In this document: positions 1-50,495 of the stretch, in pieces | Numbering within the stretch: position 1 is the stretch's first letter | How the letters are laid out: each line of letters begins with the position of its first letter | Source: Eledone cirrhosa | Lineage: Eukaryota | DNA length: 64,000 nt | Assembly: GCA_964016885.1 (NCBI GenBank) | Contig: OZ024740.1 | Coordinates: 59,210,001 to 59,274,000 of the forward strand | Direction of reading: 5' to 3' | Notes under the pieces: generated by a model | Told to the model about the DNA's origin: nothing | The model's input: only the letters and a program-made list of their open reading frames with translations | Databases searched by the model: none | Program-made: the position numbers and the translations under genes

Positions 1-2070
1 AAAAGACTAGCATGGAAGGCTTGGAATAAGGGTGGGAGTAGGGAAGAATATACAGCCACTAAGAGAGAAGCTAGACGTCAGGTGTACTTAGCACGCAGGG
101 AGGCAGAGAGTAGGAGGTTTGCCAATGTTCTGCGACGGGAAGATCAGAGGCGTGCGGTGTTCCACATTGCAAGGCAGTGTGTCAATGCAAATCAGGATGT
201 TGTTGGTGATAAATGTGTCCGGGATGATGCCGGTGTACTTAGTGTCACGAATGACCAGAAAAAGGAGGCCTGGAAATGTCATTATGAGAGACTGATGAAT
301 GTGGAGAACGAATGGGGGAGAGAGAAATTACCCTTGGTAGATCCGACAGAGGGACTAGCTATTGAGATTGATGAATATAGGGTCCAAGAGGCGATTAGGG
401 AAATGAAAAATGGTAAGGCGGCCGGACCATCGGGAATAGTTGCTGAGATGCTGAAGGCATCAGGGGACGTAGGCACTAAACTGGTTGCACGCATAATCAA
501 TCAGGCTATATATGGTGGTGTCATACCCAAAGACTGGTGCAGCAGTATTCTCATAAATTGCTACAAAGGTAAAGGGGATGCTTTGGAGAGGAGCAATTAT
601 AGGGGTATAAAACTGATAGATCAGGTTATGAAAGTGGCAGAAAGGATTTTAGCACAACTAATTAGAGAAAGGGTCAAACTAGATGAGATGCAGTTTGGTT
701 TTGTGCCTGGGAAGAGTACAACAGATGCCCTCTTCTTGGTGAGACAAATGCAAGAGAGGTTCTTAGAGAAGAATAAGCCACTATACTTAGCCTTTGTTGA
801 CTTAGAGAAGGCCTTTGATAGGGTACCCCGATCTGTCATCTGGTGGTCCCTAAGGAAGCTGGGTGTTGAGGAATGGCTTGTAAGGACAGTGCAAACTTTG
901 TACAGAGGTACTCTCAGTAAAGTCAGGGTAGGAATGGAGTTTAGTGAGGAATTCCAGATACAAGTAGGAGTACATCAGGGTTCGGTCCTCAGCCCGCTCT
1001 TGTTCATTATAGTCCTCCAAGCCATAACAGAGGAGTTTAAGACTGGCTGTCCATGGGAACTTCTCTATGCTGACGATCTGGCTCTTATGGCAGAATCAGT
1101 AGAGGAGCTAGAGAATAAATTCCGGCTATGGAAACAGCAGTTGGAAGCAAGAGGACTGAGAGTAAATCTAGCTAAGACAAAAGTGTTGATGAGTAGAAAA
1201 GAGGACAAAACCCTGATTCCGTCAGGGAAATGGCCATGTTCGATATGCAGAAAAGGAACTGGCATAAATTCTATAAAATGCACACAATGTAGGTCCTGGG
1301 TACACAAGAGATGTAGCGGGATAGCAGGCAAACTAACAGGTAGGGAGAAATATGTATGCAGTAGATGTACAGGGAAATTAGACAGTAGAAGTCGCACTGA
1401 TAGACACATTTTTCAAATGCGAGAGGGCGCTATAGAAGTGGTGGATAGCTTCCGGTACCTAGGAGATCAGATTAGCATGGGAGGAGGGTGTTCCGAGGCC
1501 ATAGTATCTAGAATAAGGACGGGTTGGAAGAAGTTTAGGGAGCTGCTTCCTCTGTTGACGAAGAAGGGTTTCTCCCTGCGTACGAAAGGCCGGTTGTATG
1601 ATGCCTGTGTGAGGAGCGCGATGCTGCATGGTAGTGAGACATGGGCAGCTACCGCAGAAGATATGCGACGGCTGGAGAGAAATGAGGCAAGCATGCTCCG
1701 TTGGATGTGCAGTGTAAATGTGCGTGAACGACCCAGCATAAATGTGTTGAGAGAGAAACTGTGTCTGAGAGGGATAGAATGTAGTGTACGGGAGAGGAGA
1801 CTGAGGTGGTATGGACATGTGATGCGCATGGAGGATGACCGATGGGTGAAGAAGTGCCAGGAAATGCCAGTTGAAGGAAGACGTGGTAGAGGTAGACCAC
1901 GAAAAACATGGGCGGAGGTGGTGAGAACAGACCTCAGATCATTGAAGCTCACGGTGGAGATGACGAGGGACCGTGACGAGTGGAGAGATGCTGTGCTGAA
2001 TAAGACCCGTCCCACCCTTGCAAGCAGGGAAAAGCGGACGTAAAATGATGATGATGATGATGATGATGAT
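1..2070 (+). mobile_element. RTE-clade LINE, family A, 3' part (runs off the window start), (GAT)n tail
   Basis: RT ORF ends KTRPTLASREKRT* and runs directly into TAAAATGATGATG...; near-identical to 23702-26620. Confidence 0.92.
82..2043 (+). CDS. RTE ORF, reverse transcriptase part with inserted PHD-type finger (frame probably begins upstream of the window)
   Basis: NYRGIKL, QFGF, FVDLEKAFDRV, GVHQGSVLSPLLF, LYADD, C4HC3 finger at 1237-1368, RRLRWYGHV, RGRGRPRKTW. Confidence 0.92.
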   Translation: MYLARREAESRRFANVLRREDQRRAVFHIARQCVNANQDVVGDKCVRDDAGVLSVTNDQKKEAWKCHYERLMNVENEWGREKLPLVDPTEGLAIEIDEYRVQEAIREMKNGKAAGPSGIVAEMLKASGDVGTKLVARIINQAIYGGVIPKDWCSSILINCYKGKGDALERSNYRGIKLIDQVMKVAERILAQLIRERVKLDEMQFGFVPGKSTTDALFLVRQMQERFLEKNKPLYLAFVDLEKAFDRVPRSVIWWSLRKLGVEEWLVRTVQTLYRGTLSKVRVGMEFSEEFQIQVGVHQGSVLSPLLFIIVLQAITEEFKTGCPWELLYADDLALMAESVEELENKFRLWKQQLEARGLRVNLAKTKVLMSRKEDKTLIPSGKWPCSICRKGTGINSIKCTQCRSWVHKRCSGIAGKLTGREKYVCSRCTGKLDSRSRTDRHIFQMREGAIEVVDSFRYLGDQISMGGGCSEAIVSRIRTGWKKFRELLPLLTKKGFSLRTKGRLYDACVRSAMLHGSETWAATAEDMRRLERNEASMLRWMCSVNVRERPSINVLREKLCLRGIECSVRERRLRWYGHVMRMEDDRWVKKCQEMPVEGRRGRGRPRKTWAEVVRTDLRSLKLTVEMTRDRDEWRDAVLNKTRPTLASREKRT

Positions 2071-2991: not shown

Positions 2992-3686
2992 ACCTGGGCG
3001 CTGAAGGTGGAAGACTTACGTAGATTAGAGAGAAACAAAGCCTGCATGCTCCGATGGACGTGTAACAGTAATATACGTGAACGACAAAGCATAAATGAAT
3101 TGAGAGAGAGACTGAGCATAAGAGGAATCAAATGCTGTGTGCAGGAGAGGCGGTTGCGCTGGTATGGACATGTGATGCGTATGAAGGATGACAGCTGCAT
3201 AAAAAGGTGCAGAGCACTAGAAGTTGATGGAAACCGCAGAGTGGGGAGACCCAAGATGACCTGGGATGAGGTGATAAAAGCCAACCTTACCCAATTACAC
3301 CTCTCAAAGACAATGACACACGACCGTGACTTCTGGCGTCACGCAGTAATACAGAGTACCCGACCTCCCATGGGTACATGCTGAAGCATATAAACAATAT
3401 GTCCCCACACCACCCACCGCAAGGTGGTCGTGGAGGTGCCACGGCAAAAAAGCACCCAGCCCACACTGTAAAGTGGACGTGTAGGCGCCACGAAAAAGCA
3501 CCCAGCACTCACTGTAAATGAGGTTGGTGTTAGGAAGGGCATCCAGCTGTAGAAATCAAGCCAGATCAGTTCCTGTATGAGCAAGGCATGGTCAGCCGAC
3601 CAGACACTGCACACAACAGGACAACCCGTCTAACCCATGCTAGCGTGGAAGAACGGACGTAAAACGGTGATGATGATGATGATGAT
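2992..3686 (+). mobile_element. RTE family B, 5'-truncated copy
   Basis: TWALKVEDLRRLER...TRPPMGTC*, family B 3'UTR, (GAT)n tail. Confidence 0.92.
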
Positions 3687-3895
3687 ATATATGATATATA
3701 ATATATATATATGTAATATATATATATTTATATATATGATATATATATATATATATTATATATAATATATATAATATATATATATATGATATAAATATAT
3801 ATATACATTATATATAATATATATATATGATATATGATATATAATATATATAATATTATATATAATATATATATATGATATATGATATATAATAT

Positions 3896-4419
3896 ATGGG
3901 TCTGGACGGGAATTGTCCCACTTGAGTCAAGATTGCTCAGGACTATCTGGCGCGTTTTGTACGGCTGGATGCCCTTCCTAACACCAACCACGTTTACAGT
4001 GTGGACTGGGAGGTTTTATGTTACGGTACGAAGAAGAGACTGACTAATACATAGTTAAAATTTCAAGCAAATCGGTCTGACGTAACGCCTCAAAAAACCT
4101 CTAAAAATGTTAAACAACGCAGTCTTTCACCTAGGAGATGAAAAAAGTGGAATTTTTTTATGTGCAATCCCTGACGCATGTAAAGTTTAAAAAAAATCTC
4201 TGGGTACTTCTCGAGTGACCAACACAGACATCCACAGAGAATTGACATAATGCAGACAAACAGACATACAAATTTGAAATTCTCTTTGTTCAGAACACTC
4301 CCTGAAACATAAGTATTACATGTGTAAAGTTTGACAACAGTCGGTTGGGTGGTTCTCGAATTTCAGGAATTCGAACTCACACACACACAGACAGACATCC
4401 TCAATTTTATATATATAGA
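3896..4419 (-). mobile_element. Helitron-head/RTE-tail chimeric element, copy 1 (tail end clipped)
   Basis: Minus strand starts TCTATATATATAAAATTGAGGATGTCTGTC and ends in RTE 3'UTR sequence containing GGAAGGGCATCC. Confidence 0.7.
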
Positions 4420-5058: not shown

Positions 5059-6016
5059 TGAAACAGCAAGCAAACAGCCACAGGAAACAAGTACCACCAA
5101 TCTCTGGGAGGGCCCTGTAGAAACAGTAGACAGCTTCTGCTACCTAGGTGACCGAATTAGCAACGGAGGTGGGTGCTCAGAAAGTACAATAACTAGGGTA
5201 AGAACGGGATGGAAGAAGTTTAGGGAACTACTACCACTGCTAGCTGCAAAAGGCTTCTCCCTCAGAATGAAAGGCAGACTGTATGATGCGTGTATCCGAA
5301 CAGCGATGTTGCATGGTAGTGAGACCTGGGCGCTGAAGGTGGAAGACTTACGTAGATTAGAGAGAAACGAAGCCTGCATGCTCCGATGGATGTGTAACAG
5401 TAATATACGTGAACGACAAAGCATAAATGAATTGAGAGAGAGACTGAGCATAAGAGGAATCAAATGCTGCGTGCAGGAGAGGCGGTTACGCTGGTATGGA
5501 CATGTGATGCGTATGAAGGATGACAGCTGCATAAAAAGGTGCAGAGCACTAGAAGTTGATGGAAACCGCGGAGTGGGGAGACCCAAGATGACTTGGGATG
5601 AGGTGATAAAAGCCGACCTTACCCAACTACACCTCTCAAAGTCAATGACACACGACCGTGACATCTGGCGTCACGCAGTAATACAGGGTACCCGACCTCC
5701 CATGGGTACATGCTGAAGCATATAAACAATATGCCCCCCCCCCACCGCAAGGTGGTCGTGGAGGTGCCACGGCAAAAAAGCACCCAGCCCACACTGTAAA
5801 GTGGACGTCTAGGCGCCACGAAAAAGCACCCAGCACTCACTGTAAATGAGGTTGGTGTTAGGAAGGGCATCCAGCTGTAGAAATCAAGCCAGATCAGTTC
5901 CTGTATGAGCAAGGCATGGTCAGCCGACCAGACACTGCCCACAACAAGACAACCCGTCTAACCCATGCTAGCGTGGAAGAACGGACGTAAAACGGTGATG
6001 ATGATGATGATGATGA
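5059..6016 (+). mobile_element. RTE family B, 5'-truncated copy
   Basis: Matches the 3' ~950 bp of the full-length B element; ORF 5267-5716; (GAT)n tail. Confidence 0.93.
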
Positions 6017-6256: not shown

Positions 6257-6391
6257 ATATATATATATGATATATAATATATATATGATATATAATATAT
6301 ATATGATATATCATATATATATATATAATATATAATATATATATATATGATATATAATATATATAATATATATATGATATCTGTATCATAT

Positions 6392-6568
6392 CACACTGTA
6401 AATGTGGTTGGTGTTAGGAAGGGCATCCAACTGTAGAAAACCTGCCAGACAGTCCTATGCGAGCAAGAAAATCACTCTTGCCTCAAGTGGGACTACCCCC
6501 GTCCAAACCCATGCAAGCATGGAACACGGACGTTAAACGTTGATGATGATGATGATGATGATGATGAT
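6392..6568 (+). mobile_element. RTE family C 3'-terminal mini-copy
   Basis: CACTGTAAATGTGGTTGGTGTTAGGAAGGGCATCC...GGACGTTAAACGTTGATGATG. Confidence 0.88.
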
Positions 6569-6688: not shown

Positions 6689-7390
6689 CATCATCATCAT
6701 CGTTTAACGTCCATCTTCCACGCTAGCATGGGTCTGGACGGGAATTGTTCCACTTGAGGTAAGATTGCTCAGGACTGTCTGGCGGGTTTTATATGGCTGG
6801 ATGCCCTTCCTAACACCAACCACGTTTACAGTGTGGACTGGGAGGTTTTTATCGTGTTACCTACACGTCCATATGACAGCGTGGACTGTGTGTTATGGTA
6901 TGAAGAAGAGACTGACTAATACATAGTTACATTTTCAAGGAAATCAGTCTGACGTAACGCCTCAAAAAACCTCTAAAAGTGTTAAACAACGCAGTTTTTC
7001 ACCTAATGCTGGCCCCAGGAGATACAAAAAGTATTACACATGTAAAGTTTAAAAAAAATCGGATGGGTACTTCTCGAGTACCCAACGCAGACATCCTCAG
7101 GGAAGGGACGTAATGCAGACAGCCAGACATACAGACAGATATTATAAGGCACAACGTTATAAGTATCTATCTAAAAAGAGAAATACTAAGAATTATAGAG
7201 CGAGATCGCTAAATCGTCTAATGTGGTCCCTGGGACATAAAAAATTTGAAATTCTTTTTGCTCAGAACACTCCGTGAAACATAAGTTTACATGTGTAAAG
7301 TTAGACAACAGTCGGTTGGGTGGTTCTCGAATTTCAGGGATTCAAACTCACACACACACAGACAGACATCCTCAGTTTTATATATATAGA
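6689..7390 (-). mobile_element. Helitron-head/RTE-tail chimeric element, copy 2
   Basis: TC-TATATATAAAACTGAGGATGTC start at 7390, about 490 bp similar to the Helitron at 62.1-62.7 kb, about 200 bp RTE-C-like 3'UTR, (GAT)n tail. Confidence 0.75.
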
Positions 7391-16465: not shown

Positions 16466-19400
16466 TCAGCATGTACCCATGGGAGGTCGGGTACCCTGTA
16501 TTACTGCGTGACGCCAGAAGTCACGGTCGTGTGTCATTGACTTTGAGAGGTGTAGTTGGGTAAGGTCGGCTTTTATCACCTCATCCCAAGTCATCTTGGG
16601 TCTCCCCACTCCGCGGTTTCCATCAACTTCTAGTGCTCTGCACCTTTTTATGCAGCTGTCATCCTTCATACGCATCACATGTCCATACCAGCGTAACCGC
16701 CTCTCCTGCACGCAGCATTTGATTCCTCTTATGCTCAGTCTCTCTCTCAATTCATTTATGCTTTGTCGTTCACGTATATTACTGTTACACATCCATCGGA
16801 GCATGCAGGCTTCGTTTCTCTCTAATCTACGTAAGTCTTCCACCTTCAGCGCCCAGGTCTCACTACCATGCAACATCGCTGTTCGGATACACGCATCATA
16901 CAGTCTGCCTTTCATTCTGAGGGAGAAGCCTTTTGCAGCTAGCAGTGGTAGTAGTTCCCTAAACTTCTTCCATCCCGTTCTTACCCTAGTTATTGTACTT
17001 TCTGAGCACCCACCTCCGTTGCTAATTCGGTCACCTAGGTAGCAGAAGCTGTCTACTGTTTCTACAGGGCCCTCCCAGAGATTGGTGGTACTTGTTTCCT
17101 GTGGCTGTTTGCTTGCTGTTTCAGCACAGCTGCTGCATGTGAATCCTACATTCTTAATTAAGCTTCCTGAGATCCCGCTACATCTCTTGTGTACCCATTG
17201 TTTGCATTTGGGGCAAAGAATGGAGTTCCTACCTACACCTTTCCTACATACTGAGCAAGGCCATTTCCCTGAGGGGATCTGGGTTCTGTTTTCTCGTCTA
17301 CTTATAAGGACCTTAGTCTTTGTCATGTTGACTTTGAGGCCCTTTCTCTCTAGTCCCTGCTTCCAGGTTTGGAATTTATTCTCTAGTTCTACCATAGATT
17401 CAGCTATGAGTGCGAGGTCATCAGCATACAGGAGTTCCCATGGGCATCCGGTCTTAAACTCCTCCGTTATTGCCTGCAGGACTATGATGAACAGGAGAGG
17501 GCTAAGAACAGAGCCCTGGTGGACCCCAACCTGTACGCTAAATTCCTCGCTATACTCATTGCCAATCCTAACTTTGCTGACTGCTCCCCTATACATGGCT
17601 TGTACCGCTTTCACAAGCCATTCATCTACTCCTAGTTTTCTAAGAGCCCACCAGATTACTGCACGTGGAACTCTGTCAAAGGCTTTCTCAAGGTCGACAA
17701 ATGCCAAGTAGAGTGGCTTACTTTTAGCTAGGTACTTTTCCTGTAATTGCCTCACAAGGAAGAGCGCATCAGTGGTGCCTTTCCCTGGAACAAACCCAAA
17801 TTGCATCTCGTCTATATTCACCCGGTCCCTAATCAGCTGTGCTATAACTCTTTCTGTTACTTTCATGACCTGGTCCATCAACTTTATACCTCTATAGTTT
17901 CCTCTATCTAGTGCATCGCCTTTACCTTTGTAGCAGTTGACAATGATGCTACTGCACCAATCTTTTGGTATGGCCCCCTCTAGTATTACCTGGTTAACGA
18001 TACGTGTGGTTATAGTGTGACCTACAGACCCAGATGCCTTCAGCATCTCGGCAGCTATACCCGATGGACCGGTTGCCTTCCCTATCTTCATATCTCTGAT
18101 TGCCTTACTTACTACGCTGCCGCTGACTTGTACTGCTGGTCCCTCTATAGGGTCTACGTGGGGTAGGGTCTCTTCTTCCCATGCATTCTCCTCATTTAGT
18201 AATCTATCATAATGACTCTTCCATGCATCTTTCTTCTCAGCACTTGTGAGGGCAAGCTCACCTTTATCATTCCGGATACACTTCTCTCCAATGACATCAC
18301 AACTATCTCTGACACACTGCCTCGCAATCTTGAATACCTCCTGTTTCTGGTCCTCACGTTGTAAAACATGCTTGAATTTTCTATCCTCTGCTTCCCTCCT
18401 AGCTAAGTATACTTGTCGCCTAGCTTCCCTCTTGGTCTCTATGTAATGTACCCTGCTCCCCCCGTTCTTCCATTCTTTCCATGCCTGTCTCTTGGCCTTG
18501 ACTGCTTCATCTACTTTATTGTTCCACCACCAAGTCACTCTCCTCCTGCTTGAGGTCTTACTCCAGCCACAAACCTCATCCGTCGCCTCTAGTAAGTTAT
18601 TTTTTAGGAACTCCCAGTTCTCTTCTACGTTAAATGTCTCTATCTGTTCTTCTTTACTGTCGTAGGCGTTGAGTAAAATATCTTTAAATCTGTTACTGGT
18701 TGAGGGGACTTTCAGCTTCCAGATCTTTCTTCTCCAGGTTGGCCTCTGTTTCAGGGCTCGTCTAGTTCTGACCGTGAGGTCGCTGACAACTAAGCTATGT
18801 TGGGATGTACATTCCTCACTAGGGAAGGCTTTTGTGTTTACGACCGTCCATCTGTCACGTCCTCTGATGAGAATAAAATCTAACTGACTAGAGTGCTCCC
18901 CTGATCTATAGGTGATCAGGTGGTTGTCGGGTTTTTTAAAGTTTGTGTTACATATCGACATGTCATTGGCGTCGCAGAATTCTAGAAGTCTGAATCCTTC
19001 CTCATTCCTTGTGCCAACTCCATGGCCTCCATGTACTCTATTGAAGCCGTCGCAGTGTTTACCTACGTGTCCGTTAAAATCTCCTGCAATGATTAGGAAG
19101 TCCTTGTCGTCTGTTAGAGCAGTAGTGTGTATTAGGGACTCGTAAAACCTATCCTTAAGTTCGTCTGGCAGCCCCGATTGGGGTGCGTAAGCTGATATTA
19201 TTGTGGTAATTGTCTTATTCAGGACTAGTCTGAGTTTAATGATTCTTGCATTTACCCTGTACACTGAGATTACTTTATCTACCCACTTGTCAGCTAATAG
19301 TATACCTACACCACCCATCCCATCGTCGTTTCCCACCCAGAAAAATTTGTAGCACTGGCTTTTTCCTACAAGGACTCTAGCAGACCCTCCTCTCCATCTA

Positions 19401-19585
19401 GTCTCTTGCACACAGCATACATCAACTTCCTTTCGCTCTAGCATTTCTACGATTTCTCCTGCTCTTCCTTTCATTGAGCCTACATTGATGGTACCAACTC
19501 GGAGTTTTGGGCATTTGTCGACACTCGTAGGGGAGGGTCTCTGGGTTGGCGCTTCACGTGGGTGCTTGGTAGCTCGCAGATTCAT
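16466..19585 (-). CDS. RTE polyprotein: APE endonuclease + reverse transcriptase + PHD-type finger, 1039 aa, uninterrupted
   Basis: APE motifs GTINVGS, CVQETRW, SAYAPQ, GDFNGH, LDFIL, SQH; RT motifs QFGF, DLEKAFDRV, QGSVLSP, YADD; C4HC3 finger at 17126-17257. Confidence 0.96.
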   Translation of the reverse strand: MNLRATKHPREAPTQRPSPTSVDKCPKLRVGTINVGSMKGRAGEIVEMLERKEVDVCCVQETRWRGGSARVLVGKSQCYKFFWVGNDDGMGGVGILLADKWVDKVISVYRVNARIIKLRLVLNKTITTIISAYAPQSGLPDELKDRFYESLIHTTALTDDKDFLIIAGDFNGHVGKHCDGFNRVHGGHGVGTRNEEGFRLLEFCDANDMSICNTNFKKPDNHLITYRSGEHSSQLDFILIRGRDRWTVVNTKAFPSEECTSQHSLVVSDLTVRTRRALKQRPTWRRKIWKLKVPSTSNRFKDILLNAYDSKEEQIETFNVEENWEFLKNNLLEATDEVCGWSKTSSRRRVTWWWNNKVDEAVKAKRQAWKEWKNGGSRVHYIETKREARRQVYLARREAEDRKFKHVLQREDQKQEVFKIARQCVRDSCDVIGEKCIRNDKGELALTSAEKKDAWKSHYDRLLNEENAWEEETLPHVDPIEGPAVQVSGSVVSKAIRDMKIGKATGPSGIAAEMLKASGSVGHTITTRIVNQVILEGAIPKDWCSSIIVNCYKGKGDALDRGNYRGIKLMDQVMKVTERVIAQLIRDRVNIDEMQFGFVPGKGTTDALFLVRQLQEKYLAKSKPLYLAFVDLEKAFDRVPRAVIWWALRKLGVDEWLVKAVQAMYRGAVSKVRIGNEYSEEFSVQVGVHQGSVLSPLLFIIVLQAITEEFKTGCPWELLYADDLALIAESMVELENKFQTWKQGLERKGLKVNMTKTKVLISRRENRTQIPSGKWPCSVCRKGVGRNSILCPKCKQWVHKRCSGISGSLIKNVGFTCSSCAETASKQPQETSTTNLWEGPVETVDSFCYLGDRISNGGGCSESTITRVRTGWKKFRELLPLLAAKGFSLRMKGRLYDACIRTAMLHGSETWALKVEDLRRLERNEACMLRWMCNSNIRERQSINELRERLSIRGIKCCVQERRLRWYGHVMRMKDDSCIKRCRALEVDGNRGVGRPKMTWDEVIKADLTQLHLSKSMTHDRDFWRHAVIQGTRPPMGTC

Positions 19586-19828
19586 ATTTCATCTATTGAT
19601 TCAGAGTTGCTCGTGTATTCCCAGCTCATCCATCCATAACGGTGGGAAAATTGAGGGCTAGAAGGACAGTGGTGGTGGGGTAATGGCAGGGTGTGTTGGG
19701 ATGCGCCAGAGGAGGAGAGAGTTAGTTAGGCAGGTAGTAGCAGCAGCAGCAGTGGAAATGGCATGCTAGGTTTGATTGGTCGAATAGACTATGGTGGTGT
19801 GTGGGGGTGGGGGGGAGGGAAATTGTGA

Positions 19829-21625
19829 GGTAGGAACTGAGGGTCGCATGGTAAATATCCAAGTTAATACTACATCAGTAAAATTAACAATAATAACGTC
19901 ATGAAAAAAGCTACTAAGAGAAACCCTCGAAAATTTATCGTTAGTACAGCAGGGAAAATTTAACGCTAATACAGCAGGGAACATCATAATATTAACGACA
20001 TGAAAAAGCTACTAAGAGAATCCCTCGAAAATTTATCGCTAATACAGCAGGGAAAATTTAACGCTAATACAGCAGGGAACATCATAATATTAACGACATG
20101 AAAAAGCTACTAAGAGAATCCCTCGAAAATTTATCGCTAATACAGCAGGGAAAATTTAACGCTAATACAGCAGGGAACATCATAATATTAACGACATGAA
20201 AAAGCTACTAAGAGAAACCCTCGAAAATTTATCGCTAATACAGCAGGGAAAATTTAACGCTAATACAGCAGGGAACATCATAATATTAACGACAATATGT
20301 AGGCTAAAATACCTTCGTAGATTAGGTGGATGGCTGGCTGGGAAAATTTGAATCAGCTCTACTGGTACATTTTAGCAGAGAAGAATGGCAAAGTGTCTTA
20401 TCTCTTCAATATTTTCAGATTGAATGAATTAGGTTAAAGACAGGGTAGTAAGCCTTAAAGAAGTGCATAGAGGGGGGGGGGGGGGGTAGGAACTGAGGGT
20501 CGCATGGTAAATAACTGAAAGAGATACAATAGGATTAGAATACCGCATGGTAAATATCCAAGTTAATAAGTTAATACTACATCAGTAAAATTAACAATAA
20601 TAACGTCATGAAAAAAGCTACTAAGAGAAACCCTCGAAAATTTATCGTTAATACAGCAGGGAAAATTTAACGCTAATACAGCAGGGAACATCATAATATT
20701 AACGACATGAAAAAGCTACTAAGAGAATCCCTCGAAAATTTATCGCTAATACAGCAGGGAAAATTTAACGCTAATACAGCAGGGAACATCATAATATTAA
20801 CGACATGAAAAAGCTACTAAGAGAATCCCTCGAAAATTTATCGCTAATACAGCAGGGAAAATTTAACGCTAATACAGCAGGGAACATCATAATATTAACG
20901 ACATGAAAAAGCTACTAAGAGAAACCCTCGAAAATTTATCGCTAATACAGCAGGGAAAATTTAACGCTAATACAGCAGGGAACATCATAATATTAACGAC
21001 AATATGTAGGCTAAAATACCTTCGTAGATTAGGTGGATGGCTGGCTGGGAAAATTTGAATCAGCTCTACTGGTACATTTTAGCAGAGAAGAATGGCAAAG
21101 TGTCTTATCTCTTCAATATTTTCAGATTGAATGAATTAGGTTAAAGACAGGGTAGTAAGCCTTAAAGAAGTGCATAGAGGGGGGGGGGGTAGGAACTGAG
21201 GGTCGCATGGTAAATAACTGAAAGAGATACAATAGGATTAGAATACCGCATGGTAAATATCCAAGTTAATAAGTTAATACTACATCAGTAAAATTAACAA
21301 TAATAACGTCATGAAAAAAGCTACTAAGAGAAACCCTCGAAAATTTATCGTTAATACAGCAGGGAAAATTTAACGCTAATACAGCAGGGAACATCATAAT
21401 ATTAACGACATGAAAAAGCTACTAAGAGAATCCCTCGAAAATTTATCGCTAATACAGCAGGGAAAATTTAACGCTAATACAGCAGGGAACATCATAATAT
21501 TAACGACATGAAAAAGCTACTAAGAGAATCCCTCGAAAATTTATCGCTAATACAGCAGGGAAAATTTAACGCTAATACAGCAGGGAACATCATAATATTA
21601 ACGACATGAAAAAGCTACTAAGAGA
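19829..21625. repeat. Hierarchical tandem repeat: 98-bp units grouped in ~700-bp higher-order blocks
   Basis: CCCTCGAAAATTTATCG recurs every 98 bp (20021, 20119, 20217); AACTGAGGGTCGCATGG recurs at 19835, 20491 and 21194. Confidence 0.93.
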
Positions 21626-21907: not shown

Positions 21908-23255
21908 TGACCAAGTTCTAGTTTGTAGGAAAGAAAATAAGGCTGCGGTCTCTTCCGGGAAATGGCCATGCTCAGTGTGTAGGAAAGGCGTAGGTAGAAA
22001 CTCCATTTTATGTCCCAAATGCAAAATATGGGTGCATAAAAGATGTAGTGGGATCACAAGTAAGCTAACTAAGAACATAGATTTTACATGTGGCCGGTGC
22101 TCTGGTGCAATAAGTAGCAGCAAGTGCCCACAAAATACTAGCTCTTTCAATTGCGCAGAGGGTTCTATAGAAATAGTGGACAGCTTCCGTTACCTGGGTG
22201 ACTAAATCAGCAGTGGGGGAGGGTGCTCTGAAAGTACAGTAGCTAGAGTCAGAACTGGATGGAAAAAGTTCAGAGAGCTTATACCACTATTAGCCGCTAA
22301 AGCGTTCTCCCTAAAAATGAAAGGCAGGTTGTATGATGCCTGCATACGAACAGCAATGTTGCATGGCAGTGAGACCTGGGCATTGTGTGCAGAGGATATA
22401 CGCAGACTAGAGAGGAACGAAGCTTGCATGCTCGGCTGGATGTGTAATAGTAATATACGTGAACGGCTAAGCATAAACGAACTAAGGAAAAAATTAGAAA
22501 TAAGAGGGATCAGATGTTGTTTACTCGAGAGAAGGCTACGTTGGTATGGTCACGTGATGCGCATGAAAGACGACAGCTGTATAACAAAGTGCAGGGCAAT
22601 AAAGATAGACAGTAGCCACGGAGTAGGCAGACCCAGAAAAACCTGGGACGACATGATAAATTCCGACCTCACACACTTACACCTCACCAAGACAATGTCA
22701 CTGGACCAAGACCTTTGGCGGTACTCAGTAATAGAGAAGACCCGCCTTACCTAAATACAAAGTAAAACCTACTACTGTCAGTAGGCATCTCTAACAAAAC
22801 ACACCCCCGTCCCACCAACCCCACCCCATCTACACCGCCCCTTTCAATGTAAAGTTATGTTGGTGCCACAACATCCAGGCCGAAACAAATGAGATCGTGT
22901 AGGTGTCACGACAAAAAACACACAGTCCACGCTGTAATGTGGCCGTGTAGGCAACACAGTAAAATCTCCCAGCCCCACACTGTAAATGTGGTTGGTGTTA
23001 GGAAGGGCATCCAGCTGTAGAAAACCCGCCAGACAGACCACGCTGTAATGTGGCCGTGTAGGCAACACGGTAAAAATCTCCCAGCCCCACACTGTAAATG
23101 TGGTTGGTGTTAGGAAGGGCATCCAGCTGTAGAAAACCCGCCAGACAGTCCTATGCGAGCAAGACAATCACTCTTGCCTCAAGTGGGAAAACCCCCGTCC
23201 AAACCCATGCAAGCGTGGAACACGGACGTTAAACGTTGATGGTGATGATGATGAT
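21908..23255 (+). mobile_element. RTE family C, 5'-truncated, with an internal ~110-bp tandem duplication in the 3'UTR
   Basis: ORF pieces 21975-22205 and 22317-22754; the GGAAGGGCATCC module occurs twice (about 23000 and 23112). Confidence 0.9.
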
Positions 23256-23491: not shown

Positions 23492-23654
23492 CATCATCAT
23501 CATCATCAACGTTTAACGTCCGTGTTCCACGCTTGCATGGGTTTGGACGGGGTTTTTCCCACTTGAGGCAAGAGTTATTGTCTTGCTCGCATAGGACTGT
23601 CTGGCGGGTTTTCTACAGCTGGATGCCCTTCCTAACACCAACCACATTTACAGT
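23492..23654 (-). mobile_element. RTE family C 3'-terminal mini-copy
   Basis: Reverse complement of the C tail, starting at ACTGTAAATGTGG. Confidence 0.88.
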
Positions 23655-23701
23655 ATATATATGATATATAATATATATATATGATATATAATATATAATA
23701 T

Positions 23702-29085: not shown

Positions 29086-29782
29086 CATCATCATCATTTA
29101 ACGTCCGTCTTCCACGCTAGCATGGGTCTGGATGGGAATTGTCCCACTTGAGGCAAGATTGCTCAGGACTGTCTAGCGGGTTTTATACGTCTGGATGCCC
29201 TTCCTAACACCAACCAAGTTTACAGTGTGGACTGGGAGGTTTTTATCGTGTTACCTACACGTCCATATTACAGCGTGGACTGTGTGTTATGGTATGTAAA
29301 AGAGACTGACTAATACATAGTTACAATTTCAAGGAAATCGGTCAGACGTAACGCCTCAAAAAACCTCTAAACGTGTTAAACAAAGCAGTTTTTCACCTAA
29401 TGCGGGCCCAAGGAGATAATAAAAATTTTTCACATGTAAAGTTTGAAAAAAATCGGTTGGGTACTTCTCGAGTACCCATCACAGACATCCCCAGGGAAGT
29501 GACGTAACGCAGACAGTCAGTCATACAGACAGATATTATAAGGGCACGACGTTATAAGTATGTATCTATCTAAAAAGAGAAATACTAAGAATTATAGAGC
29601 GAGATCGCTAAATCGCCTAAGTTGTTCCCTGGGACATAGCAAATTTGAAATTCTTTTTGCCCAGAACACTCGCTGAAACATAAGTATTACATGTGTAAAG
29701 TTTGACAACAGTCGGTTGGGTGGTTCGCGAATTTCAGGGATTTGAACTCACACACAGACATCCTCAGTTTTATATATATAGA
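29086..29782 (-). mobile_element. Helitron-head/RTE-tail chimeric element, copy 3
   Basis: Same structure and junction as 6689-7390, with many substitutions. Confidence 0.75.
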
Positions 29783-46897: not shown

Positions 46898-47001
46898 ATA
46901 TATAATATAATATATATATATATAATATATATATAATATATATATATATAATATAATATATATATATATATAATATATATAATATATATATATAATTTAA
47001 T

Positions 47002-48231
47002 AAAGTTCTAGTTTGTAGGAAAGAAAATAAGGCGGCGGTCCCTTCTGGGAAATGGTCGTGCTCGGTGTGTAGGAAAGGCGTAGGTAGAAACTCCATTTTA
47101 TGTCCTAAATGCAAAGTATGGGTGCATAAAAGATGTAGTGGGATCACAGGTAAGCTAACTAAGAACATAGATTTTACATGTGGCCGGTGCTCTGGTGCAA
47201 TAAGTAGCAGCAAGTGCCCACAAAATACTAGCTCTTTCAATTGCGCAGTGGGTTCTATAGAGATAGTGGACAGCTTCCGTTACCTGGGCGATAAAATCAG
47301 CAGTGGGGGAGGGTGCTCTGAAAGTACAGTAGCTAGAGTCAGAACTGGTTGGAAAAAGTTCAGAGAGCTTATACCACTATTAGCTGCTAAAGGGTTCTCC
47401 CTAAAAATGAAAGGCAGGTTGTACGATGCCTGCATACGAACAGCAATGTTGCATGGCATTGAGACCTGGGCATTGTGTGCAGAGTATGTACGCAGACTAG
47501 AGAGAAACGAAGCTTGCATGCTCCGCTGGATGTGTAACAGTAATATACGTGAACGGCAAAGCATAAACGAACTAAGGAAAAAATTAGAAATAAGAGGGAT
47601 CAGATGTTGTTTACTCGAGAGAAGGCTACGTTGGTATGGACACGTGATGCGCATGAAAGTCGATAGCTGTATAACAAAGTGCAGGGCAATAAAGATAGAC
47701 GGTAGCCACGGAATAGGCAGACCTAGAAAAACCTGGGACGAGCTGATAAACTCCGACCTCACACACTTACACCTCACCAAGACAATGTCACTGGACCGAG
47801 ACCTTTGGCGGTCCTCAGTAACAGAGAAGACCAGCCTTACATAAATACATAGTAAAACTTACTACAGCCAGTAGGCATCTCTAACAAAATACACCCCGTC
47901 CCACCACCCCCACACCACCCCGTTCTATGTAAAGTTATGTTGGTGCCGCGCCATCCAGGCCGAAACAAATGAGATCGTGTAGGTGTCACGACAAAAAAAC
48001 ACACAGTCCACGCTGTAATGTGGCCGTGTAGGCAACACGGTAAAAACCTCCCAGATCCACACTGTAAATGTGGTTGGTGTTAGGAAGGGCATCCAACTGT
48101 AGAAAACCTGCCAGATAGTCCTATGCGAGTAAGACAATCACTCTTGCCTCAAGTGGGACTACCACCGTCCAAACCCATGCAAGCGTGGAACACGGACGTT
48201 AAACGTTGATGATGATGATGATGTTGATGAT
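47002..48231 (+). mobile_element. RTE family C, 5'-truncated copy
   Basis: ORF 47065-47844 with PHD finger; C 3'UTR and tail. Confidence 0.92.
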
Positions 48232-48256
48232 ATATATATATAATATATAATATATA

Positions 48257-48403
48257 TTTCGTTTCTGAATTTGTTTAGCAAGATTCTTTATCTGAAATCG
48301 TGTGTTGAAACCGATATTGTTATACTTTGGGAGGGGTCATGTTGCCAATAACTGGTGCGTGTGTTTCTTATTGCAACATGACCCTCCCAAAGTATAACAA
48401 TAT
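48257..48403 (-). mobile_element. Tiny fold-back relic of the 9708-14727 PLE terminus
   Basis: Reverse complement of 14637-14727, followed by an inverted copy ending CCCAAAGTATAACAATAT. Confidence 0.85.
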
Positions 48404-49040
48404 AATATATAATTTAATATATATATATATAATTTAATATATATATAATTTAATATATATATAATATATAATTTAATATATATATATATAATTTAATATA
48501 TATATAATATATATATATAATATATAATATATATATAATATATATAATATATAATATATTATATAATTTAATATATATATATAATATATATATGTAATAT
48601 ATAATATATATATATAATTAAATATATATATATAATATATATATATATAATTTAATATATATATAATATATATATATATATAATTTAATATATATATATA
48701 ATATATATATATAATTTAATATATATATAATATATATATATAATATATATATATAATATATATAATATATAATATATATATATTATATATAATATATATA
48801 TATAATATATAATATATATATATAAATTAATATATATATAATATATATATATAATATATATATATAATTTAATATATTTATATAATATATATAATATATA
48901 ATATATATATATAATATAATATATATATATAATATATATATATAATATATATATATATATATAATATACATATATAATATATATATATATAATATATATA
49001 ATACATAATATATATATATAATTTAATATATATATATAAT

Positions 49041-49074
<34 letters not shown>

Positions 49075-49956
49075 ATATATATATATAATATATATATATA
49101 ATATATATATATATATATAAATATATATATAATATATATATATATAATATATATATATATATATAAATATATATATAATATATATATATATAATATATAT
49201 ACAAAAGTTTTATTTAAGATTGTTGGGGTTACAACGAGTAAATATTTTATAACTGATATAAAAGCACTCAACAGTTTCTGGAGTATGTTTACGATATTAA
49301 ACAAATGGAAACTATATTTATAAAACCATATTTATTTCGTTATATATATTTCTGGGATATCATATTAAAAATATGGTATGCCTCCTCAGACAAAATACAA
49401 TACATAAGCTGTTTTATAAATAATTAGTGACATATATATATATATAATATATAATATATATATATAATATATAATATATATATATAATATATAATATATA
49501 TATATATATATAATATATAATATATATATATATAATATATAATATATATATATAATATATTATATATATATATAAATATATAATATATATATATATAATA
49601 TATAATATATATATATATAATATATAATATATATATATATAATATATAATATATATATATGTAATATATAATATATATATATAATATATATATATATATA
49701 TAATATATAATATATATATATAATACATATATATCTATATAATATATATATATAATATATATATATTATATATATATATATAATATATATATATATATAT
49801 AATATATATATATATATAATATATATATATATAATATATATATATATATAATATATATATATATATTATATATATATAATATATATAAATATATATATAT
49901 AATATATATATATATAATATATATATATATAATATATATATATAATATATATAAAT

Positions 49957-50001
<45 letters not shown>

Positions 50002-50286
50002 TAATATATATAGAATATATATAATATATATATATATATATAATATATATAATATATATAGAATATATATAATATATATATATATAATATATATAGAATA
50101 TATATAATATATATAGAATATATATAATATATATAGAATATATATAATATATATAGAATATATATATATATATATATAATATATATATATATATAATATA
50201 TATATATATAATATATATATATAATATATATATAAATATATATATAATATATATATATAATATATAATATATATAATATATATATG

Positions 50287-50325
<39 letters not shown>

Positions 50326-50329
<4 letters not shown>

Positions 50330-50495
50330 TGTAAATGTGGTTAGTGTTAGGAAGGGCATCCAACTGTAGAAAACCTGCCAGACAGTCCTATGCGAGCAAG
50401 AAAATCACTCTTGCCTCAAGTGGGACTACCCCCGTCCAAACCCATGCAAGCGTGGAACACGGACGTTAAACGTTGATGATGATGATGATGATGAT
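50326..50495 (+). mobile_element. RTE family C 3'-terminal mini-copy
   Basis: ACACTGTAAATGTGG...(GAT)n. Confidence 0.9.

What the first reader, a model, noticed from the sequence alone, without database searches (positions are those of the whole stretch)
47975..48112. Tandem covarying hairpin/pseudoknot cassette shared by RTE B, RTE C, the SINE and the Helitron chimera
Seen in C: TCGTG-taggtgt-CACGA caaaaaa ACAC; CCAC-gctgtaat-GTGG; CCGTGT-aggca-ACACGG taaaaa CCT; CCAC-actgtaaat-GTGG; GGA-agggca-TCC...agaaaa CCTGCC. Seen in B: TCGTGG-aggtg-CCACGG caaaaaa GCACC; CCAC-actgtaaa-GTGG; CGTG-tagg(c/t)gc-CACG aaaaa GCACC; CTCA-ctgtaaa-TGAG; same third module. Stems and loop partners change together (GGTG/CACC, GTGT/ACAC, AGG/CCT; CCAC/GTGG versus CTCA/TGAG), while the A-rich linker and the CTGTAA loop persist. 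Inference: repeated H-type pseudoknot + hairpin modules forming a portable functional RNA element (RT/RNP loading, nuclease block or catalytic RNA) that every non-autonomous passenger here retains. The GGAAGGGCATCC motif resembles RTE-derived segments of bipartite SINEs, but I know no description of this repeated fold.
Basis: partly seen in the sequence, partly recalled or inferred. Interest (0 to 1): 0.72.

Follow-up and report, generated by a model that had tools for sequence, protein, structure and literature searches.

The report
Repeated tail units of RTE retrotransposons
This is a repeated, conserved stretch in the untranslated tail of RTE-type jumping genes that their short passenger elements also carry; it likely helps the copying machinery recognise the RNA, but the proposed knot-like folds are not backed by the statistics.

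Summary
The letters are there as described. Window 47975-48112 lies in the 3' UTR of an RTE-like LINE ('C'; stop codon 47842-47844, (GAT)n from 48208). It holds two tandem ~49-nt units (small hairpin, A-run, GCACC/ACACA/CCTCC+CAG, second small hairpin) and then a block containing GGTGTTAGGAAGGGCATCC. RTE B, a chimeric short element and a fourth element share the cassette. That fourth element is a tRNA-derived SINE, not a Helitron chimera.

The cassette is as conserved between B and C as their coding ends, while the flanking UTR is not alignable. The 19-mer block recurs exactly in about 19 unrelated repeat families of other organisms.

The fold claim is weak:
- Folding energies match shuffles (z -1.1 to +0.6).
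- Covariation does not beat controls on the measures that resist relatedness.
- The pseudoknot helix is broken in one of the two C units.
- Rfam has no match.
- RTE A has the same terminal hairpin but no cassette.
- Unit number runs from 1 to about 35, like a minisatellite.

Best reading: a conserved, repeat-prone cis region of RTE 3' UTRs that SINEs borrow. Its function is likely RNP or RT recognition, which is unproven.

The parts
46996..47844 (+). 3' end of the RTE-C open reading frame (PHD finger and C-terminal part); stop TAA at 47842-47844
   Evidence: PHD PF00628, E 1.3e-6. A full B copy at 16466-19588 (-) has Exo_endo_phos + RVT_1 + PHD in one 1040-aa frame.
47845..47974 (+). Proximal 3' UTR with a C-rich tract; not conserved between B and C
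   Evidence: 13-50% identity in 30-nt windows
47975..48023 (+). Unit 1 (Cm1): TCGTG-TAGGTGT-CACGA, A-run, ACACACAG, CCAC-GCTGTAAT-GTGG
   Evidence: hairpin 1 predicted; z -0.53; hairpin 1 5/6 pairs, pseudoknot 4/5, hairpin 2 4/4
48024..48073 (+). Unit 2 (Cm2): CCGTGT-AGGCA-ACACGG, A-run, CCTCCCAG, CCACA-CTGTAAA-TGTGG
   Evidence: both hairpins are the minimum-energy fold; z -1.11; pseudoknot only 2/5 pairs in the common register
48072..48115 (+). Third module: conserved block GGTTGG-TGTTAGGAAGGGCAT-CCAACT, GTAGAAAA, CCTGCCAGA. The exact 19-mer is at 48076-48094.
   Evidence: 19-mer exact in 58 metagenome loci, 21 clusters; depth peak at 48065-48108 in 4 runs; 93% identity B vs C; predicted fold; no covariation
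48116..48163 (+). Spacer, poorly conserved between B and C
   Evidence: 43-60% identity
48164..48207 (+). Terminal conserved segment with the hairpin CCATG-CAAG-CGTGG and GGACGTTAAACG. It is homologous to the very end of RTE A's reading frame and is the likely site recognised for priming.
   Evidence: 80-87% identity B vs C. The same motif type precedes a microsatellite in metagenome family 1.
48208..48232 (+). (GAT)n terminal simple repeat
3427..3565 (+). The same cassette in an RTE B copy (units Bm1 and Bm2, then the third module). Further B copies hold the 12-mer at 5861, 28782, 46744 (+) and 15569, 16301, 33106, 34455 (-).
Order: tRNA-like head, body, one unit (62813-62862), third module (12-mer at 62792-62803), RTE-A-type terminal hairpin, (GATG)n.
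6697..6899 (-). Chimeric short element 'S'. An unrelated 5' part is joined inside the A-run of unit 1, followed by unit 2, the third module, a shortened spacer and the tail. Other copies lie at 29091-29291 and 3895-4017 (the latter joined in the A-run of unit 2).
1..2068 (+). RTE A. The reading frame runs into the terminal hairpin motif (stop inside CGTAAAATG at 2041-2043), followed directly by (ATG)n. There is no cassette.

Best explanation
The flagged 138 bases are two tandem ~49-nt units plus a deeply conserved ~44-nt block in the 3' untranslated region of an RTE-like LINE, a region that is likely a cis-acting recognition platform for the element's own copying machinery and is therefore carried along by its non-autonomous passengers.

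**Shown**
- The host element has one frame with AP-endonuclease, reverse transcriptase and a PHD finger, and ends in (GAT)n.
- The UTR has two conserved islands, the cassette and a terminal hairpin with GGACGTTAAACG. Segments that have diverged beyond alignment separate them.
- The units are repeat-prone. Copy number is 1 in the SINE, 2 in B and C, 3-5 in older copies, and 12 to about 35 in satellite-like arrays.
- The last block is shared with unrelated repeat families of other organisms. Where an end can be seen, it lies 115-215 nt upstream of a microsatellite tail.

**Inferred**
- The terminal hairpin plus simple repeat is where reverse transcription is primed, because RTE A has only that part.
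- The cassette adds affinity or specificity for the RTE protein or RNP. Recognition is likely through conserved sequence words (GGTG/CACC, CTGTAAA, the 19-mer) presented on small hairpins, with a pseudoknot possible but unproven.
- Units multiply and are lost by slippage or template switching at the A-runs.
For: - **Position and host:**
- **Enrichment:** 22 exact copies of the 12-mer against 1.1 expected. There are 265 units scoring 15 or more in 738 kb.
- **Conservation profile, B vs C:** coding end 70-83%, proximal UTR 13-50%, cassette 73-93%, spacer 43-60%, terminal segment 80-87%.
- **Retention in passengers:** the SINE H keeps one unit plus the block, although its terminal hairpin is of the A type. 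S keeps 1-1.5 units plus the block.
- **Other organisms:**
  - The exact 19-mer occurs in 58 metagenome loci forming 21 clusters. About 19 of these look like eukaryotic repeats.
  - The flanks of the two largest families are not found in the window's genome.
  - In family 1, all 8 distinct insertions begin about 29 nt upstream of the 19-mer and end 190-215 nt downstream. Where the end is held (7 of the 8), a GTTAAACG-like motif precedes a microsatellite there.
  - In 4 sequencing runs of 4 coded organisms, depth peaks at 48065-48108, and one run covers only 48054-48119.
- **Repeat-proneness:**
  - TRF finds 34.7 x 51 nt and 12.5 x 48 nt arrays in L081. Arrays also occur in L034, L058 and L087.
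  - One SINE copy has 2 units.
  - There are internal duplications at 23001-23124 and in L049.
  - The S junctions lie in the A-runs.
- **Subfamily substitutions in the block's 3' strand keep pairing:** 48096 A>G and 48098 T>C.
Against: - RTE A is autonomous-looking (680-aa frame open to the window edge) and has no cassette, so the cassette is not required for RTE-type retrotransposition as such.
- No structural signal supports a fold-based mechanism:
  - z-scores run from -1.11 to +0.57 for the units, and are -0.36 and -0.32 for the whole cassettes.
  - Covariation is not above shuffles on the robust measures.
- Free variation of unit number and growth into arrays is what a neutral minisatellite does.
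- Conservation between B and C could in part reflect exchange by template switching rather than selection.
- No protein-binding, expression or mobility data exist here.
Confidence: 0.55

Rival explanations
1. Each unit folds as an H-type pseudoknot (S1 CGTG(G)/(C)CACG, S2 GGTG(C)/(G)CACC, A-rich loop 3 lying in the S1 minor groove) followed by a CTGTAAA hairpin. The stacked folds are the functional entity.
For: - The geometry is feasible: loop 1 is 1 nt, loop 2 is 0, loop 3 is 9-12 nt and A-rich (sequence).
- S2 is intact (at least 4 of 5 pairs) in 6 of 7 multi-row unit clusters.
- Pair 12:28 shows CG 40, UG 29, UA 12.
- Column 12 pairs with column 28 more often than with its hairpin partner, column 6 (83 against 55 of 113 rows).
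- The A-run is nearly invariant.
That is a lead, not evidence.
Against: - S2 has 2 of 5 pairs in Cm2 and in the S unit, both young and successful. The substitute AGG/CCT is only 3 bp.
- The four core S2 pairs hardly vary, and where they do they break.
- Pairs with a change on both sides: 3 against 2.6 in shuffles (289 of 500).
- All helices are built from the same words (GTGG, CCAC, GGTG, CACC), so alternative pairings abound.
- Energies are no better than shuffles, but pseudoknots are not modelled there.
Confidence: 0.2
2. A neutral minisatellite. The units are a slippage-prone repeat that hitch-hikes in the UTR with no role. They look conserved because they were exchanged recently between lineages.
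For: - Copy number runs from 1 to about 35.
- The arrays are satellite-like.
- RTE A does without the units.
- There is no structural signal.
Against: - The cassette is about as conserved as the coding sequence, while both flanking UTR segments have diverged beyond alignment.
- Unit architecture persists in old, diverged families (L031, L081, L043) and in another organism's contigs (loose ends of X1).
- The third block is conserved across organisms.
Confidence: 0.2
3. A recombination or template-switch module. Its main effect is to give SINE and LINE RNAs a shared stretch at which reverse transcriptase can jump, so that SINEs swap tails and LINEs swap UTR parts. This idea has been raised for conserved SINE bodies (cited in PMC4758252, section 11, part 2, passages seen).
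For: - SINE H joins B-type units and block to an A-type terminal hairpin.
- The S junctions sit in the A-runs.
- Unit gain and loss occur within one SINE family.
- The block is duplicated in 23001-23124 and in L049.
Against: - Jumping at repeats follows from any shared sequence and does not explain why the 19-mer itself is kept letter for letter across organisms.
- No direct evidence of switch points inside the block.
Confidence: 0.1
4. A catalytic RNA or an exonuclease-blocking RNA (self-cleaving ribozyme, Xrn1-resistant knot).
For: None beyond the possible pseudoknot.
Against: - No Rfam family matches at gathering score over the window.
- None matches at E up to 10 over 47800-48240.
- No conserved core beyond the short helices.
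Confidence: 0.03

Closest known systems
LINE 3' tails shared with partner SINEs, 'stringent' recognition of a 3' stem-loop (eel and zebrafish L2-clade LINEs; PMC4176376, search listing and abstract start only; general principle in the PMC5786205 abstract)
   Same: - The autonomous LINE and short elements share the 3' region.
- There is a terminal hairpin followed by a simple repeat.
- Passengers keep the LINE-derived part.
   Different: - The shared part here has two islands. The flagged one lies 90-230 nt upstream of the terminus.
- The flagged island is tandemly repeated.
- It is absent from a sister RTE (A) that has the same terminal hairpin.
R2 retrotransposon 3' UTR, a structured RNA with a pseudoknot bound by the R2 protein (recalled; no paper read here)
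   Same: A non-LTR element whose 3' UTR RNA is proposed to be recognised by its own reverse transcriptase. A pseudoknot is possible.
   Different: - R2's fold is backed by covariation and by structures.
- The fold here is not supported statistically.
- The unit here is repeated and varies in number.
Highly conserved domains of SINE superfamilies (V, CORE, Deu, Meta and others; PMC4758252 section 11; PMC5786205 sections 15 and 22)
   Same: - A short block is kept almost letter for letter in otherwise unrelated short retroposons of different organisms.
- Some copies sit directly behind heads that look tRNA-like by eye (e.g. GTTCGATTCC in L101 and L138).
   Different: - Those domains are reported from SINE bodies, and their origin is stated to be unknown (PMC5786205). 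Here the block sits in the 3' UTR of an autonomous LINE.
- I recall the 12-mer from the 3' part of a zebrafish V-SINE. I could not test this: Ogiwara 2002 is not held, and no sequence match was found in the supplements searched (one file of PMC4758252 was not searchable).
Satellites and minisatellites born from tandem repeats in retrotransposon UTRs
   Same: A 48-51-nt UTR unit expands into arrays of 12 to about 35 copies.
   Different: The flagged copy has only two units and lies inside an otherwise intact young element.

Membership tests
RTE-clade non-LTR retrotransposon (host element) | Single frame with AP-type endonuclease and reverse transcriptase | tested here: met
   the 1040-aa frame 16466-19588 (-) has Exo_endo_phos (E 3.3e-8) and RVT_1 (E 8.3e-32), plus PHD (E 4.1e-6)
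RTE-clade non-LTR retrotransposon (host element) | 3' end in a short simple repeat rather than poly(A) | tested here: met
   (GAT)n or (ATG)n at every complete 3' end
RTE-clade non-LTR retrotransposon (host element) | Reverse-transcriptase phylogeny places it in the RTE clade | not tested
No reference set was at hand.
LINE-derived SINE tail | Sequence identity between the SINE 3' region and a LINE 3' UTR in the same genome | tested here: met
   H shares the unit and block with B, and the terminal hairpin with A. S shares with C.
LINE-derived SINE tail | The shared part is needed for mobilisation by the LINE protein | not testable with these tools
   Needs a retrotransposition assay
H-type pseudoknot | Two helices with the 3' strand of S2 downstream of S1, and loop lengths that can span the grooves | tested here: inconclusive
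   Met in Bm1 (5+5 bp) and Cm1 (5+4). Not met in Cm2 or S (S2 has 2 of 5 pairs).
H-type pseudoknot | Compensatory changes in both helices beyond what relatedness gives | tested here: not met
   pairs with a change on both sides 9 vs 8.5 (263/500) and 3 vs 2.6 (289/500). Only the measures known to be inflated by relatedness exceed the shuffles.
Known ribozymes and exonuclease-resistant RNAs (Rfam 15) | Match to a curated covariance model | tested here: not met
   0 matches
tRNA-derived SINE (element at 62705-63043, minus strand) | tRNA-related head | tested here: inconclusive
   RF00005, 28.1 bits against cut-off 29, E 8.6e-4, at 62977-63034 (-). ARAGORN finds none.
tRNA-derived SINE (element at 62705-63043, minus strand) | Many dispersed copies with one common 5' end and a LINE-type 3' end | tested here: met
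   18 copies in 738 kb. Of the 12 shown, 11 are full-length and begin at the same base with unrelated flanks; the twelfth (L064) is 5'-truncated. All end in the A-type hairpin plus a simple repeat.
   Not examined. The SINE reading accounts for the whole element.
Named conserved SINE body (V-domain or other) | Sequence match to the published domain | not testable with these tools
   No repeat library is held. The papers print no sequence in text. Supplements gave no match.
TE-derived minisatellite or satellite | Head-to-tail arrays of the unit with variable copy number | tested here: met
   34.7 and 12.5 copies; arrays in L034, L058, L087

The most novel reading that the evidence does not exclude
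The unit is a genuine H-type pseudoknot with an A-rich third loop, stacked in tandem and capped by a block conserved across animal phyla. That block marks the 5' edge of the smallest mobilisable 'tail-only' elements. Together they would form the RNP-loading platform of RTE LINEs, the RTE counterpart of the R2 3' UTR knot. The block in the LINE would be the long-sought LINE-side source of a conserved SINE body.
Probability: 0.15. Interest if true: 0.7.

Novelty: new member of a known kind. Interest (0 to 1): 0.35.

Why it matters
How RTE-clade elements pick their RNA template is not known, and the origin of the conserved bodies of SINE superfamilies is stated to be unknown (PMC5786205).

A block kept letter for letter in an autonomous LINE's 3' UTR, in its SINEs, and in unrelated short retroposons of other organisms is a concrete candidate for both questions. 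It can be tested with deletion and compensatory mutants.

If the block is simply the already catalogued RTE tail, the finding is ordinary repeat anatomy. In that case it mainly shows how UTR units seed satellites.

Tried and rejected
**RNA family and gene scans**
- Rfam scans gave no family.
- ARAGORN on the window and on 15 metagenome loci found no tRNA genes.
- Rfam at E up to 1 on 8 metagenome loci gave no tRNA hit, only sub-threshold miRNA and snoRNA chance matches. Their 'tRNA-like heads' therefore rest on my eye alone.

**Folding and covariation**
- Minimum-energy folding of the whole UTRs and of single units is not better than shuffles.
- Covariation of the stem around the 19-mer across 45 families: 78.0% paired against 77.6% in shuffles (176 of 500 as high).

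**Expression**
- No RNA holder is listed, so nothing can be said on expression, RNA ends or cleavage.

**Literature and the V-domain recollection**
- The 12-mer appears only in two unrelated papers. The 10-mer search returned only unrelated-looking papers among the 15 of 78 listed.
- Searches found no description of an RTE 3' UTR pseudoknot or of this block.
- Ogiwara 2002 is not held.
- The supplements of PMC4758252 (4 of 5 files) and PMC11481361 (8 files) do not hold the motif.
- My recollection that the 12-mer belongs to the V-domain could not be tested. On reflection it may instead lie in the LINE-derived tail of that SINE, so I do not rely on it.

**Other checks**
- The flanks of metagenome families 1 and 2 were not found in the window's genome (the tool warns that no match is weak evidence).
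- Look-ups of earlier notes near the window and by sequence returned nothing.
- A 5'-truncation hot spot at 48052-48057 is seen in 5 window copies but in none of the random sample. I take it as local duplication inside the AT-rich array, not as a stall site.
- The 28-nt direct repeat flanking SINE H begins 49 nt upstream of the SINE's common 5' end, so I do not call it a clean target-site duplication.

Full report
**What is there**

The window is a stretch of a 3.0-Gb animal genome rich in AT microsatellites. The finding lies in the 3' UTR of an RTE-like LINE, 'C'.
- Its reading frame ends with TAA at 47842-47844.
- The UTR runs to a (GAT)n repeat starting at 48208.
- A full copy of the sister lineage B has one 1040-aa frame with AP-endonuclease, reverse transcriptase and a PHD finger.
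- GGAAGGGCATCC occurs 22 times exactly in 64 kb against 1.1 expected.

**Anatomy**

The cassette is a tandem repeat of a ~49-nt unit. Each unit has four parts:
- a 4-6-bp hairpin around an AGG-containing loop;
- an A-run;
- GCACC, ACACA or CCTCC followed by CAG;
- a 4-5-bp hairpin with a CTGTAAA loop.

B and C have two units. A third, degenerate module follows at 48072-48115 and holds the invariant GGTGTTAGGAAGGGCATCC.

An HMM of the unit finds 265 copies scoring 15 or more in 738 kb (the window, 29 loci around C copies and 58 random 10-kb stretches). Copy number per element varies widely:

| Element | Units |
|---|---|
| SINE H | 1 (2 in one copy) |
| B and C | 2 |
| Older copies | 3-5 |
| Arrays | 12.5 x 48 nt and 34.7 x 51 nt in L081; further arrays in L034, L058, L087 |

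My arrays agree with it.

**Who carries it**

- B, C and the chimeric short element S carry it. S has an unrelated 5' part joined inside an A-run.
- The element at 62705-63043 on the minus strand also carries it. It is a tRNA-derived SINE:
  - Its head matches Rfam tRNA at 28.1 bits (cut-off 29, E 8.6e-4).
  - All 11 full-length copies among the 12 shown of the 18 found in the sample start at the same base, with unrelated flanks. The twelfth shown (L064) is 5'-truncated.
  - It combines B-type unit and block with the terminal hairpin of RTE A.
- RTE A has no cassette. Its frame runs into the terminal hairpin motif and is followed at once by (ATG)n.
- The last ~45 nt of B and C are homologous to that coding end of A. 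The long UTR of B and C therefore looks like an insertion between the frame and the terminal hairpin.

**Is it more than chance?**

By conservation, yes. Identity between B and C runs as follows:

| Segment | Identity |
|---|---|
| Coding end | 70-83% |
| First ~120 nt of the UTR | 13-50% |
| Cassette | 73-93% (peak on the third module) |
| Spacer | 43-60% |
| Terminal segment | 80-87% |

By folding energy, no. The units give z from -1.11 to +0.57. The whole cassettes give -0.36 and -0.32, and the whole UTRs -1.24 and -1.36.

For the third module, however, the fold pairs GGTTGG with CCA(A/G)CT around TGTTAGGAAGGGCAT. It does not form the GGA/TCC hairpin.

**Covariation**

I aligned 113 distinct units. 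The tool warns that relatedness alone can give this result. The robust measures show nothing:
- pairs with a change on both sides, 9 against 8.5 (263 of 500);
- further pair types, 27 against 25.3 (122 of 500).

Real examples of compensation exist:
- pair 1:17 — UA/UG against CG;
- pair 6:12 — GC 31 against UA 19, but 57 rows unpaired;
- hairpin 2, pair 40:52 — AU 21 against UA 13;
- pseudoknot pair 12:28 — CG 40, UG 29, UA 12.

Against these:
- The other four pseudoknot pairs almost never vary, and when they do they break.
- In Cm2 and the S unit the helix has 2 of 5 pairs.
- Part of the apparent compensation in hairpin 1 is paired CpG decay.
- All helices are built from the words GTGG, CCAC, GGTG and CACC, so alternative pairings are many.
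- The stem around the 19-mer shows no covariation across 45 families from this genome and from metagenomes. The two common subfamily substitutions there (48096 A>G, 48098 T>C) do keep pairing.

My counts are less favourable. I agree with it that the job is untested.

**Beyond this genome**

- The exact 19-mer occurs in 58 metagenome loci falling into 21 clusters. Two clusters (L111; L127 and L129) sit on long contigs that look bacterial by eye, and are likely chance hits.
- The unit upstream of the block is not found in these loci (2 insignificant hits).
- The flanks of the two largest families are not found in the window's genome.
- Family 1 is a ~260-nt retroposon. All 8 distinct insertions begin about 29 nt upstream of the 19-mer and end 190-215 nt downstream. 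Where the end is held (7 of the 8), a GTTAAACG-like motif precedes a microsatellite there.
- Family 2 ends about 115 nt downstream in (TAC)n.
- In contigs of 4 runs from 4 coded organisms, depth peaks at 48065-48108. One run covers only 48054-48119. Its loose ends show a unit-like GTGC-CGGTG-GCAC hairpin, an A-run and GCACCCAG upstream.
- The third block is therefore a widely conserved component of RTE-type tails and of short retroposons. The upstream units are specific to this lineage and its near relatives.

**How it likely works**

Shown: there are two conserved UTR islands, passengers retain them, and the units are repeat-prone.

Inferred:
- The terminal hairpin plus simple repeat is the priming site, because A has only that part.
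- The cassette is an added cis platform for the RTE protein or RNP. It is read mainly as conserved sequence words on small hairpins.
- Unit number drifts through slippage or template switching at the A-runs.

I give this reading 0.55. The rivals:

| Rival | Confidence |
|---|---|
| Neutral minisatellite | 0.2 |
| Template-switch module | 0.1 |
| Ribozyme or exonuclease block (no Rfam match) | 0.03 |

**Known relatives**

- The kind is known: LINE 3' tails shared with SINEs, and UTR repeats that seed satellites.
- Kojima 2018 (PMC5786205; abstract and sections 15 and 22 read) found only RTE and Vingi 5' regions in SINE bodies, and states that the origins of conserved bodies are unknown.
- Matetovici 2016 (PMC4758252; section 11 part 1 and passages read) describes a 39-bp conserved V subdomain with a predicted stem-loop in mollusc SINEs. 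Its sequence is not in the text.
- I recall the 12-mer from a zebrafish V-SINE but could not test this. Supplements that I could not search may bear on it.
- No search found a description of this block or of an RTE 3' UTR pseudoknot.

**Verdict**

This is a real, conserved and portable UTR cassette. The proposed fold is possible but unsupported, and the function is inferred. I rate it a new member of a known kind, interest 0.35.

Noticed in passing
window 19889-21625: Three blocks of a 98-nt tandem repeat (4.1, 4.1 and 3.3 copies, 97-98% matches), each with an inner 25-nt repeat. They lie just upstream (on the minus strand) of the 1040-aa RTE B frame, and may be 5' UTR monomers of the LINE.
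   Followed up: partly
window 48314-48403: A perfect 22-nt inverted repeat (arms 48314-48335 and 48382-48403, extended imperfectly to about 32 nt) sits in the AT-rich repeat right after the RTE C tail. It is a hairpin-like or MITE-like insert.
   Followed up: partly
window 48230-62000: About 14 kb of almost pure A+T simple repeats (GC 0-12%). Embedded in it are 5'-truncated RTE C tails at 50322-50477, 54786-54941 and 61129-61221, all starting at the same base. Two more such copies lie elsewhere (6391-6544, 23506-23663). None turned up in 580 kb of random sample.
   Followed up: partly
window 23001-23124; L049:3655-3864: RTE C copies in which unit 2 plus the third block is duplicated in tandem (112-nt period), so the GGAAGGGCATCC block occurs twice.
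   Followed up: no
window 62900-62925 (-) and the other 17 SINE H copies: The SINE body holds CTCA-GCTGTAGAAA-TGAG and, just before the unit, CCAC-TGCAAA-GTGG. Both resemble hairpin 2 of the unit. By recollection the body resembles the CORE domain of MIR-type SINEs, which raises the question whether part of that domain and the unit are related.
   Followed up: no
L081:2118-2667: A 550-nt C-rich (CCT / CCACCACCTCCTCCT) repeat lies between two unit arrays. RTE B and C also have a variable C-run or CCAC tract just upstream of unit 1.
   Followed up: no
window 63093-63120 and 62678-62705 (-): A 28-nt direct repeat (one mismatch) flanks SINE H. Its upstream copy lies 49 nt before the SINE's common 5' end, so the extra 49 nt are unexplained.
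   Followed up: partly
RTE A, B and C frames (e.g. window 46996-47844): All three lineages carry a PHD finger directly after the reverse-transcriptase domain (E 1e-5 to 1.3e-6).
   Followed up: no
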